Notes: generated by a model not told the origin, from the sequence alone. A DNA stretch of 20,000 nt from Sphaeroforma arctica JP610 (GCF_001186125.1 NW_014040531.1:82469-102468), one strand, 5' to 3'. Numbered from the stretch's first letter, positions 1-19,966 are shown. Numbers and translations are program-made.

Positions 1-317
1 AGACACCACAGTCGGATCTCAACGAGCGATATAGTAGATATTGTAATCGGTTCAAATCCAGATGTATCCTTTTCGGATTTCAGTCGAGATAATGTTTTAC
101 ACTAGATTTCAAACACACACACTTGAGGAATTCAAAATCCCAACCCATGATAAGTAAAACTCCAAGCTCAAACACACACTCTTAAACCAACCACTGGTCG
201 CCCCAAAACAAAACTCTCAATCCTATTTTTTTTAAGCTGACACATGTGTTTACAATGCGGACTTTAAAATCGAGCACACACTGAAATCTATTTTGCAGCT
301 TATGCCAATACACATAC

Positions 318-527
318 CTGCAACGTGTACTGTAACACTCGAGCGGGTCCCAAACAGAAGGTTAGACCCAGCACAGCGTCCATTGTGGCGTTGATGACGT
401 GCGGTGATGTTTCAAAGATGTTCGGCCACACGAAGTTGAGCAGATGAGTCATGGCGTCTTCACAGCCGAAGCCAATCACACCCAATGACATGTGTTTGAC
501 TACTGTGCATGCTGTTTGTCGATGGAC
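318..527 (-). CDS. SF3B1: SF3B1 exon 23 (VHRQTAC...[11 protein letters not shown]...QYTLQ)
   Basis: ACTAG| acceptor, CAG|GTATGT donor; no stop codon, so the gene continues left of the window. Confidence 0.96.
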
Positions 528-1738
528 CTAGTGTATTGAAAGTATCACCATGGTGACGAGAGTGGAGAGTGAGTGGGAATATGGGTGGTATATTCAGTGG
601 CGTATTGCAAACGATACATTGGCGATGAAATCTTGAGGAAGGCAGGAAGGTGAAGGAATGTCCGCTTTAAGTGCATGGCAACGAAGAGAGAGAGAGATGC
701 TAGATAGGGGTCGGGATACTAGCTCAGTGATGTAGGGCCTATACAATCATATGTATAGAAAGCACGTAGTAGAAGAGAGTGTGGTATCATACGCAGCACA
801 GCCAAAAATAAAAATAAAAAATGTATGGAATTTGCTTTGAGTAATAAAACAGTTAAACACGCCCAATTTAAGTACGGCACTTTCTTCCGCTGCGACCTGA
901 TTAAAAAGTCAGATGACCAAATACGCCTGCGATTGCTTAGAATTTACCGCGGAACGTCTTACACAAACTTGTACTGAAACTTAAACGCATTCTCAACACA
1001 TACACATAGTTGTACAACGAGCAGGAAAGAGCACAAGCTTCCGATGACAAAGTCTTTACATACCAAGTCACGGTCCATGAGCGCATCCTCCAGTAACGGC
1101 GTCACTGCGTAGATGTAATCCTTGCCCATCTCGCCGATGTATTCAAACACAAAACTCAGACTCTTCAGCACCCCGTTCTGCACATTGAGCTCGGGCACAC
1201 GGTACTCGTTCATCAGATGAGGGATGACCGTGAATGGCGAGCAGGTCTCGGCCACGATAGCTATCGCAACCGTCGTGCACACACGGTTTTGTCGCTCTTG
1301 TACCTGGGGCGTGTGTGATTGTGCGAGAGGAGAGTTAATAAGGGATATAATCTAGTAGAGCCCAGGGGTTGATAGACTGAAAGGGAAGATGAACCGAGAA
1401 AGGGTTTGGCAAGGTATGTGTAAACATCAGAGTACATTGAGAGATGTTGTGGAGGATATCCAAAAAACACTGAGCGAAAAGTTTCGCGTTTGAGTGTCTG
1501 ACAATATGAGACTACAGTGCACAACGGGATATACATCGACTTCATGACAACTTGGCTAAGTTGATATATATGTCCAGTATTTGCTAATGTGTGATGCTAG
1601 ACTAGTATCATACTGTATAACAATGGCGCTTCTAAATCACGCTTGCTAGCCACAGGTGGATGCCCCCATGATAAATACACACACACATCTAAAAGCATAC
1701 ACACACACACACAAGCATACATACAAACACAAACACAA

Positions 1739-1772
<34 letters not shown>

Positions 1773-18792: not shown

Positions 18793-19425
18793 ATTGTATA
18801 CTACTACGAAACTACAAGCTCAAAACCCGCGTGAGGCCAGATGTACCGGAAAGTTCGCGTAGAGAAAATTGCAATATATAGAATTGTTCAGATCTTAGAT
18901 CTGTGCCATAACAGGCTGCGTCACTCAATAATATTATAGTCTATCCGATGGATCAAATAGATGTGCGTGTTGACTATTTCGTATGAACTATGTGTGTATA
19001 CCAGTCTTCATATTCGGCGTCGCATGGATTATCGCCCAGAGTGATATGTCTGATTTTCAATTGAGTACCGAACTGTTCAATACAAAAATTGTTAGGACGT
19101 TACGAACTGGCGTTTTAAAAATACACACAAAAATCAAATTGTGTGTGTATGTGTTTTTTAGTTGATCTCACACCCCCAGGCCCCAGAGAGTCCCAGACTC
19201 CCGGAGAGTTTGAAATTTTATTTAATACTGCCGGGGTGGTGGTACGTTGTCCAAAACAAACTTGAGCTGCGGATTAACGAGATACTTTAGAGTCATATCA
19301 CATCGAAGTAGTTCATGTCTGCATACAGCTGTCCTGTATTCAGACGGTTAGGTACGCGTGTACCAGAACATACACTGAGAAATATTCAACGGCATAGTTG
19401 CCGGCTATAAATAGCTTTGAACACC
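18793..19425. promoter_or_regulatory. Putative bidirectional promoter/5'UTR region between head-to-head SF3B1 and THOC1
   Basis: 633 bp between two divergent ATGs; no specific elements assigned. Confidence 0.5.
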
Positions 19426-19646
19426 ATGGCTGCAGCCTGTGACACTGACATGGTCGTGTCTGGTGACCAGATTACTGATGATAACATAGAAGCCAACGAA
19501 ACGAATAACAAGGCAATTCTAGGCATTCTATCTACCTCTATATTTAGCTTTATAGACCAGAAAGATGAAGCTGTCACTTATGAAGACGTTACGGACAGTG
19601 ACATCCACCAGGCGGTTAATCATTTCCGGAAGATACATGAAAAGGG
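19426..19646 (+). CDS. THOC1: Probable first coding exon of THO complex subunit 1 (MAAACDTD...FRKIHEKG)
   Basis: acaccATGG start context. The phase-2 donor GG|GTACGT fits the phase-2 acceptor at 16220, and the following intron echoes exon 16220-16403. The peptide alone is not diagnostic. Confidence 0.7.
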
Positions 19647-19966
19647 GTACGTAGGTTTCAATTGATGTGCACTTCGAAACTTATTTACCGAATATATGCA
19701 TGATAGGATGATATAATCACGATTAATGATATCTCCTCCTATACTTCTGATAGTTAATAATTTGTGCCTGTAGATTTCTTATTCTTGCATGCGTGTACTT
19801 CGTAGCTCGTTTCGTTGACATTACTTTTGTCGCGAAAATCGGTGCGATCATTGTCGCTGGTATTTTGCATCGTGTACATGTATTCTTTGTGTTGCAAGTA
19901 CCGCATATTAATGTCGTATGGATTGAATTATATGTGCAAATGTGCGATGAATGCGAAAAAGCATAA

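What the first reader, a model, noticed from the sequence alone, without database searches (positions are those of the whole stretch)
16..19860. Introns systematically carry decayed, intron-less 'echoes' of their own flanking exons
Seen: by eye, many introns of both genes contain colinear, same-strand degenerate copies of the end of the upstream exon and/or the start of the downstream exon. The copies are padded with small insertions, and several run straight across the spliced junction with no intron. Clearer cases are SF3B1 introns 8, 12, 13, 14, 17 and 22 and THOC1 introns 1 and 2. Weaker cases are SF3B1 introns 1, 7, 10, 11, 15, 16, 19, 20, 21, 23 and THOC1 intron 3. Each echo I found matches the exons next to it; I did not test distant exons systematically. 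Established: tandem duplication of coding DNA containing AG|GT is a proposed but rarely documented route to intron gain, and a simple duplication leaves the order downstream-exon then upstream-exon inside the intron. Inference: the order mostly seen here (upstream end, then downstream start, junction intact) needs repeated local duplication or insertion of spliced-RNA/cDNA-templated sequence into the cognate site. This may be an undescribed lineage-wide intron creation or expansion process. Excess third-position differences are expected if only the live exon stayed under selection.
Basis: partly seen in the sequence, partly recalled or inferred. Interest (0 to 1): 0.92.

Follow-up and report, generated by a model that had tools for sequence, protein, structure and literature searches.

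The report
Decayed exon copies in two introns
In a splicing-factor gene of a single-celled relative of animals, two introns carry real, decayed copies of their neighbouring exons, likely left by local head-to-tail DNA duplication and in one case possibly the fossil of an intron's birth, while most of the other reported "echoes" match no better than chance.

Summary
The window holds SF3B1 and THOC1 of Sphaeroforma arctica. RNA contigs confirm SF3B1 introns 8-22.

Echoes are firm in 2 of 26 introns. Intron 8 holds two exon-8 copies (34 bits), with no sign of a spliced junction. Intron 12 holds a copy running across the exon 12|13 junction (p 0.0007). That copy then returns to exon-12 sequence (p 0.003), the pattern of a ~170-nt tandem repeat rather than of an inserted cDNA.

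Introns 9, 17 and 2 are borderline. Simulated padded echoes are detected in 65-100% of introns, against 3 of 25 observed. One result stays unexplained: an excess of exact 10-mers shared with flanking exons (9 vs about 1.7) whose flanks do not extend.

Best reading: frequent local tandem duplication (about 14% of intron DNA), a known process (amphioxus "mirages", Rogers model). Intron 12 is a candidate young intron gain. The scan noted similar cases in other genomes.

The parts
318..14643 (-). SF3B1 exons 2-23 with introns 2-22 (SARC_00771 region); exon 24 lies beyond the window start
   Evidence: PDB and Pfam matches
18644..18792 (-). SF3B1 exon 1, lying beyond the THOC1 exons (scaffold order likely wrong)
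   Evidence: in frame with exon 2; matches SF3B1 N-termini, best E 1.6e-5 among 39 proteins
16220..18046 (+). THOC1 exons 2-5 (SARC_00772 region); the exon 4/5 edges are one of 12 open choices and are not RNA-checked
19426..19646 (+). probable THOC1 exon 1 (inferred from phase and open frame only; no Pfam hit)
   Evidence: (342 aa open when joined)
10387..10559 (-). SF3B1 exon 8, source of the intron-8 copies
10042..10146 (-). main decayed copy of exon 8 (nt 71 to about 170) in intron 8; 65 of 100 columns identical
10255..10289 (-). second, shorter exon-8 fragment (nt 65-95) in intron 8, starting at nearly the same exon position
   Evidence: p 0.002, rank 1 of 28
9696..10049 (.). young 99-bp x3.6 array that amplified the end of the exon-8 copy
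7482..7517 (-). intron 12: copy of the exon-12 end (A), with a 9-nt exact match to the exon's last bases
   Evidence: (p 0.016-0.024, rank 1 of 28)
7351..7481 (-). intron 12: copy of exon 13 nt 1-129 (B), joined to A with about 6 extra nt and no intron
   Evidence: (p 0.0007)
7315..7361 (-). intron 12 3' end: second exon-12-end-like stretch (A again), then about 20 nt to the acceptor
   Evidence: p 0.0015; better than 99.7% of 1554 coding 26-mers
8917..9057 (.). 46-bp x3.1 array of the intron-9 acceptor (branch-point-like motif, pyrimidine tract, AG); the last copy is the one used
9094..9225 (-). borderline padded copy of exon 10 in intron 9
   Evidence: (p 0.007-0.013)
10560..10881 (-). old ~160-bp tandem duplication of the 3' part of intron 7, ending at the acceptor; no exon sequence in it
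   Evidence: 18.6 bits; maximum of 500 shuffles 7.3
11609..11771 (.). 32-bp x5.1 array ending 7 nt before the intron-6 acceptor
6356..6847 (.). 35-bp x14 array inside intron 13

Best explanation
SF3B1 introns 8 and 12 carry real, decayed, same-strand copies of their neighbouring exons, likely left by local head-to-tail DNA duplication, and most other listed echoes are chance matches. Shown: these introns hold many tandem arrays with units of 32-170 nt, three of which end at or across a splice acceptor; intron 12 reads A|B then A before the live exon 13 (A = exon-12 end, B = exon-13 start; period about 167 nt); intron 8 holds two exon-8 copies that start at nearly the same exon position. Inferred: slippage or microhomology-mediated duplication multiplied a segment; splicing from the outermost donor to the outermost acceptor kept the mRNA intact, so the extra copies drifted neutrally while the live exon changed mostly at third positions. 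Inferred and untested: intron 12 was born or enlarged this way, from three or more copies of a unit spanning the exon 12|13 junction.
For: Arrays make up about 1470 of 10815 nt of introns 2-22 (the intron 7 share is my estimate). After the exon-13 copy, the exon-12 tail scores 1.7 bits, against -10.4 for genomic and -10.0 for spliced continuation. The intron-12 end matches the exon-12 end at rank 1 of 28 and is the only p<0.01 case among 26 introns at 40-80 nt. In intron 8 a genomic unit fits 9 bits better than spliced mRNA. Controls are at chance for most introns, and the test has the power to see padded echoes. About 7.5% of S. arctica intron sites are gains on its own branch, which is about 2 of 26 here.
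Against: The extra B copies predicted at the 5' end of intron 12 are not significant (p 0.15 and 0.25; 0.11-0.21). The live junction 12 is not an AG|GT site, and about 20 nt at the intron end have no counterpart. My own by-eye reading that the intron-8 copy runs on into the intron-8 start failed (p 0.19-0.81; 0.11). The return to exon 12 was seen by eye before it was tested. Exact 10-mers are enriched between exon and intron at 150-600 nt (9 vs 1.0 expected) but not between intron and intron (4 vs 4.0) or in inverted orientation; generic duplication explains this only if the events are old. Only one 20-kb window was available.
Confidence: 0.65

Rival explanations
1. Spliced RNA or cDNA from the gene itself is copied into its own introns during break repair or failed intron loss, leaving junction-intact inserts.
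For: Intact 12|13 junction in intron 12. The 10-mer excess is exon-specific, same-strand and confined to flanking exons. Transcript-templated repair exists in human cells (PMC12065846, abstract and outline seen).
Against: Junction crossing in only 1 of 28 intron pieces. The intron-12 copy returns to exon 12 instead of going on to exon 14. Intron 8 gains nothing from exon 7 or exon 9. The signature reported in that abstract is whole-intron deletion, not insertion.
Confidence: 0.08
2. Nearly every intron holds a very old, heavily padded exon copy, and most are just below detection.
For: 5 of 26 introns at p<0.05. Estimated null share 0.83 of 58 pairs. Nine exact matches of 10 nt or more vs about 1.7 expected outside introns 8 and 12, permutation p 5e-5. 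Two of nine scorings gave a shift at p 0.01-0.03.
Against: Simulated padded copies at up to 0.6 substitutions per site are found in 65-100% of introns, against 3 of 25 observed. The seeds do not extend better than 278 control seeds (p 0.81-0.94), and the 7-8-mer and 11-mer excesses that real copies give are weak or absent. I tried several families of statistics, so the 10-mer p is optimistic.
Confidence: 0.15
3. Intron 12 is old and was only enlarged: a unit of exon end, short old intron and exon start was multiplied, and the old intron shrank to a few bases in the copies.
For: About 92% of S. arctica intron sites predate the split from Creolimax. Both A copies are followed by short spacers (about 6 and 20 nt) that look alike by eye (printout). 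No proto-splice site at the junction.
Against: The intron-12 end does not score as the left neighbour of the exon-13 copy (p 0.19-0.44), whereas the exon-12 end does (p 0.016-0.024).
Confidence: 0.3
4. Only intron 8 is real (an ordinary dead duplicated exon); intron 12 is chance or an assembly artefact.
For: Intron 12 scores only 7-8 bits; unjoined flanking exons give p 0.01-0.07. One of 55 orthologous DNA stretches from other eukaryotes reached 6.8 bits vs 7.5 for the organism's own exons.
Against: 0 of 1500 shuffles reach the junction-crossing score, about 0.02 after correcting for 28 pieces. It tops all 602 non-flanking pairs. DNA contigs of run X8 carry it unchanged.
Confidence: 0.07

Closest known systems
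[quoted passage not shown]
   Same: Intron sequence is a direct copy of flanking exon sequence, and the intron ends in upstream-exon-like sequence.
   Different: Intron 12 needs three or more copies, has an intact junction inside, lacks an AG|GT site at the live junction, and its novelty as an intron position is untested.
Amphioxus 'mirages', minisatellite-like duplications of exon-intron boundaries (PMC3087553 passages seen)
   Same: Tandem units of tens to about 160 bp at splice boundaries, normal splicing kept, proposed as a route to new introns. The intron-9 acceptor array fits directly.
   Different: The amphioxus BflGb6 units are 81-100% identical and span an existing boundary. The exon-derived copies here are 55-70% identical, and the intron-12 unit spans a spliced junction. 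My search for mirages listed 2 papers, both on cephalochordate genes.
Microhomology-mediated tandem duplication (PMC13167724, abstract and start of text seen)
   Same: A general, mostly neutral source of short tandem duplications that can expand. A shared 5-nt word lies at the inferred B-to-A join in intron 12.
   Different: The breakpoint here is decayed and two positions in exon 12 fit, so microhomology is a lead and not shown.
RNA-templated break repair (PMC12065846, abstract and outline seen) and Introner elements (PMC9860276, one passage seen, no mention of Sphaeroforma or Ichthyosporea in the main text)
   Same: Both are routes to change in intron content; the first can write spliced junctions into DNA.
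   Different: The first is reported to delete introns. The second copies one element into many genes, whereas the copies here match only their own flanking exons.

Membership tests
[quoted passage not shown] | Intron contains a direct copy of flanking exon sequence | tested here: met
   covers the 3' 200 of 512 nt
[quoted passage not shown] | Intron ends in a copy of the upstream exon's end | tested here: met
   p 0.0015, rank 1 of 28; p 0.003; the last ~20 nt are unmatched
[quoted passage not shown] | Intron begins with a copy of the downstream exon's start | tested here: inconclusive
   p 0.15; 10 of 20 in-register matches, equalled by two other introns; a microsatellite lies in this part
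[quoted passage not shown] | AG|GT proto-splice site at the spliced junction | tested here: not met
   5 of 21 other junctions counted have it. PMC4974935's abstract reports gains without it, so I file this as working like the model, not as the strict Rogers case.
[quoted passage not shown] | Intron absent at this position in close outgroups | not testable with these tools
   No ichthyosporean genomic DNA held; the 80 fetched loci are transcripts or intron-poor genes, 4 of 80 with any break
Mirage-type boundary repeats | Tandem unit spans or abuts an exon-intron boundary | tested here: met
   intron 9 array includes the AG and first exon base; arrays in introns 6 and 7 end at the acceptor
Mirage-type boundary repeats | Intron-8 exon copy includes the donor and intron start | tested here: inconclusive
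   p 0.19-0.81; p 0.11 for both flanks together
Mirage-type boundary repeats | Regular splicing is kept | tested here: met
   one joint per intron in contigs of 3 runs; contigs drop rare variants
Mirage-type boundary repeats | Copy-number instability among alleles | not tested
   only one DNA run was laid, as contigs
cDNA or RNA-templated insertion | Spliced junction present without intron | tested here: met
   intron 12 only, 1 of 28 pieces
cDNA or RNA-templated insertion | Copy follows linear mRNA order to its end | tested here: not met
   returns to exon 12; spliced continuation scores -10.0 bits
Introner elements | Family of mutually similar introns in unrelated positions | tested here: inconclusive
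   best distant intron-intron match is 9.6 bits among 7942 window pairs; one window cannot exclude a family

The most novel reading that the evidence does not exclude
Sphaeroforma runs a genome-wide, exon-biased copying process (multi-copy tandem amplification of coding DNA, or transcript-templated repair in place). It has left relics of the flanking exons in about a third of introns and supplies the lineage's own new introns. That would make it a readable record of intron birth and growth in a clade with large, unexplained intron gain.
Probability: 0.2. Interest if true: 0.78.

Novelty: new member of a known kind. Interest (0 to 1): 0.38.

Why it matters
How new spliceosomal introns arise is still open, and traceable cases are few (PMC3443670). 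Ichthyophonid ichthyosporeans had a large episode of intron gain, and the section read names no mechanism for it (PMC5560861 section 13). Two exon-derived tandem relics and five arrays in one gene suggest that S. arctica introns grow by local duplication. A genome-wide scan would be cheap and could yield many datable cases. Intron 12 also shows that an intact spliced junction inside an intron need not imply reverse transcription. The window alone does not support a new process. My searches listed no paper describing such copies in Sphaeroforma; that covers only the open-access library, Gao and Lynch 2009 and Zhuo 2007 were not held, and the per-site intron table of PMC5560861 was too large to read.

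Tried and rejected
1) Genome-wide repeat of the test: no genome is held.

2) My by-eye idea that the intron-8 copy continues into the intron-8 start: higher alignment scores, but not significant in anchored tests. Kept only as inconclusive.

3) Further exon-13 copies in the first 305 nt of intron 12: not significant.

4) Simple-duplication signature at intron ends across 26 introns: only intron 12 stands out for the upstream-exon end; one isolated p 0.001 for the intron-13 end vs the exon-14 start appeared at one of four lengths.

5) Insertion-biased padding: not seen in the firm cases.

6) The reverse-complement control was miscalibrated (null built on the sense strand) and was dropped.

7) Intron-position mapping from 80 metagenome loci: uninformative.

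8) No RNA holder was listed as such; the three runs laid behave as spliced RNA. SF3B1 introns 1-5, THOC1 and the scaffold order were not covered by reads.

9) The intron-7 duplicate does not run into exon 8 (rank 24 of 28).

10) Rows changed before counts: four young arrays were collapsed to one unit from then on. The incomplete introns S23 and T5 were left out. T5 was left out. Introns 8 and 12, pieces of 250 nt or less and pieces without a downstream exon were left out. Low-complexity words were removed.

Full report
Setting. No whole genome is held, so all tests rest on this window. A THOC1 exon is 100% identical to SARC_00772 and an SF3B1 exon to SARC_00771 of Sphaeroforma arctica JP610. 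I built 23 SF3B1 exons on the minus strand with GT-AG edges, giving 1220 aa without a stop. Spliced contigs from three runs show the 15 listed joints, matching introns 8-22. DNA contigs of a fourth run, which may be the window's source, match the laid stretch 1-11950 without listed differences. THOC1 edges are not RNA-checked.

Is the observation more than chance? Local alignment of 30 intron pieces against 28 exons, each with 60 shuffles, gave z 8.1 for intron 8 vs exon 8 and 4.6 for intron 12 vs exon 13. The median z was -0.1 and 0.2 for flanking pairs and -0.2 for 782 non-flanking pairs, whose maximum was 6.2. Nine scoring schemes, including cheap-insertion ones, always ranked intron 8 first and intron 12 first or second. 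Without these two, the junction-pair ranks were uniform (p 0.29-0.94) and the single-exon shift had p 0.01-0.60. A codon-aware pair HMM gave 27-30 bits for intron 8 and 6-8 of 57 flanking pairs at p<0.05. A multi-hit version on 26 introns with young arrays collapsed gave 34 bits (intron 8), 6.9 (intron 12; above all 602 controls), 4.1 (intron 9), 2.9 (intron 17) and 1.6 (intron 2). Without introns 8 and 12, Fisher p was 0.10 and 0.25. A 24-setting grid with permutation gave p 0.14-0.51 without them.

Outside introns 8 and 12, nine exact matches of 10 nt or more link introns to their flanking exons, against about 1.7 expected (permutation p 5e-5, corrected over five word lengths). The excess is same-strand, exon-to-intron and at 150-600 nt, with none between introns or in inverted orientation. 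An independent check did not back it: the flanks of these seeds align no better than those of 278 control seeds (p 0.81-0.94), apart from hints in introns 16, 15 and 20 (p 0.025-0.07). The length spectrum also does not match simulated decayed copies. I tried several families of statistics, so I leave this unexplained. It is the reason the novel case keeps a probability of 0.2.

Intron 12. A path forced across the exon 12|13 junction scores 7.7 bits; none of 1500 shuffles reached it. Both halves add information (rank 1 of 27 each way). The exon-12 end fits to the left of the exon-13 copy (p 0.016-0.024) and the intron's own end does not (p 0.19-0.44). The intron's last 48 nt also resemble the exon-12 end (p 0.0015, rank 1 of 28). 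Directly after the exon-13 copy, the exon-12 tail fits better than 99.7% of 1554 coding 26-mers, while genomic and spliced continuations score about -10 bits. The order is therefore A|B, A, then the live exon B, with a period of about 167 nt. That is the circular order of a tandem repeat; an inserted cDNA would go on towards exon 14. Three or more copies of a unit spanning the junction, spliced from first donor to last acceptor, give this pattern without any RNA step (inference). Weak points: I saw the second A by eye before testing it; earlier B copies are not significant; the live junction is not AG|GT; about 20 nt before the acceptor are unmatched. An old short intron multiplied with its flanks remains possible.

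Intron 8. The main copy covers exon-8 nt 71 to about 170, with 65 of 100 columns identical. A second fragment starts at nt 65 (p 0.002), and a 99-bp array later amplified the copy's end. Third positions differ more often (13/30 vs 10/58, p 0.009), as expected if only the live exon stayed under selection; corrected distances are 0.20 and 0.65. Neither exon 7, exon 9 nor the intron-8 start extends the copy significantly. A genomic tandem unit fits 9 bits better than spliced mRNA (p 0.11 vs 0.85 against their own nulls). It is not shown to be intron-less.

Background process. Introns 6, 8, 9 and 13 hold young arrays (32 x5.1, 99 x3.6, 46 x3.1, 35 x14), and intron 7 holds an old ~160-bp duplication (18.6 bits). 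Together they are about 14% of introns 2-22. Three end at or across an acceptor; the intron-9 array triples the acceptor and only the last copy is used in the RNA contigs. Local self-similarity is raised within about 500 nt for exon queries and within 150 nt for intron queries. Exon copies in neighbouring introns are an expected by-product, and they stay visible longer because selection holds one partner still (inference).

Age and intron gain. Published reconstruction gives 797 intron sites in 342 orthologues for S. arctica, about 60 of them gained on its own branch, 311 on the branch shared with Creolimax and 269 at the ichthyophonid root (PMC5560861 supplement 8 part 1; section 13). Copies still 55-70% identical are unlikely to date from the deeper episodes (inference), so about 2 of 26 introns here could be young gains. 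Intron 12 is a candidate. Its position in relatives could not be tested.

Comparison. The finding works like tandem-duplication intron gain and amphioxus mirages, a lead I took from earlier scan notes and then read. Earlier scan notes describe similar boundary repeats in sea urchin genes and a duplication-born intron in a diatom-type gene; I did not check those loci.

Verdict. The systematic, intron-less and RNA-templated readings are not supported. New member of a known kind; interest 0.38.

Noticed in passing
window 14644-20000: The scaffold is likely mis-ordered. SF3B1 exon 1 (18792-18644, minus) and the probable THOC1 exon 1 (19426-19646, plus) sit head to head beyond THOC1 exons 2-5, and the breaks fall in AT microsatellite tracts and the N gap. 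The database proteins are truncated accordingly (865 and 225 aa). RNA contigs hold about 1050 nt upstream of exon 7, against 861 coding nt in my model. A truly nested arrangement is not excluded.
   Followed up: partly
window 8917-9057: Three tandem acceptors, each with a branch-point-like motif and AG, two of them unused in the RNA contigs; a natural test of acceptor choice.
   Followed up: partly
window about 5270-5420 and 13040-13140: Best distant intron-intron match (9.6 bits, introns 15 and 4); it may be a small dispersed repeat.
   Followed up: no
window 5021 and 11054: DNA contigs of run X8 have loose ends here (30 and 255 letters), suggesting sequence missing from this assembly or strain differences inside introns 15 and 7.
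   Followed up: no
SF3B1 junctions 2-22: 13 of 21 exons end in AG, 10 of 21 next exons start with GT, and 5 junctions have both.
   Followed up: partly
window 318 and protein P0006: The Ichthyophonus gene model ends at the residue where S. arctica exon 23 ends, hinting at a shared intron position.
   Followed up: no
run X20 on window 1-11950: A close relative (organism C) has the same spliced sequence with 21 listed exon differences; its genome would be a good outgroup for the arrays.
   Followed up: no
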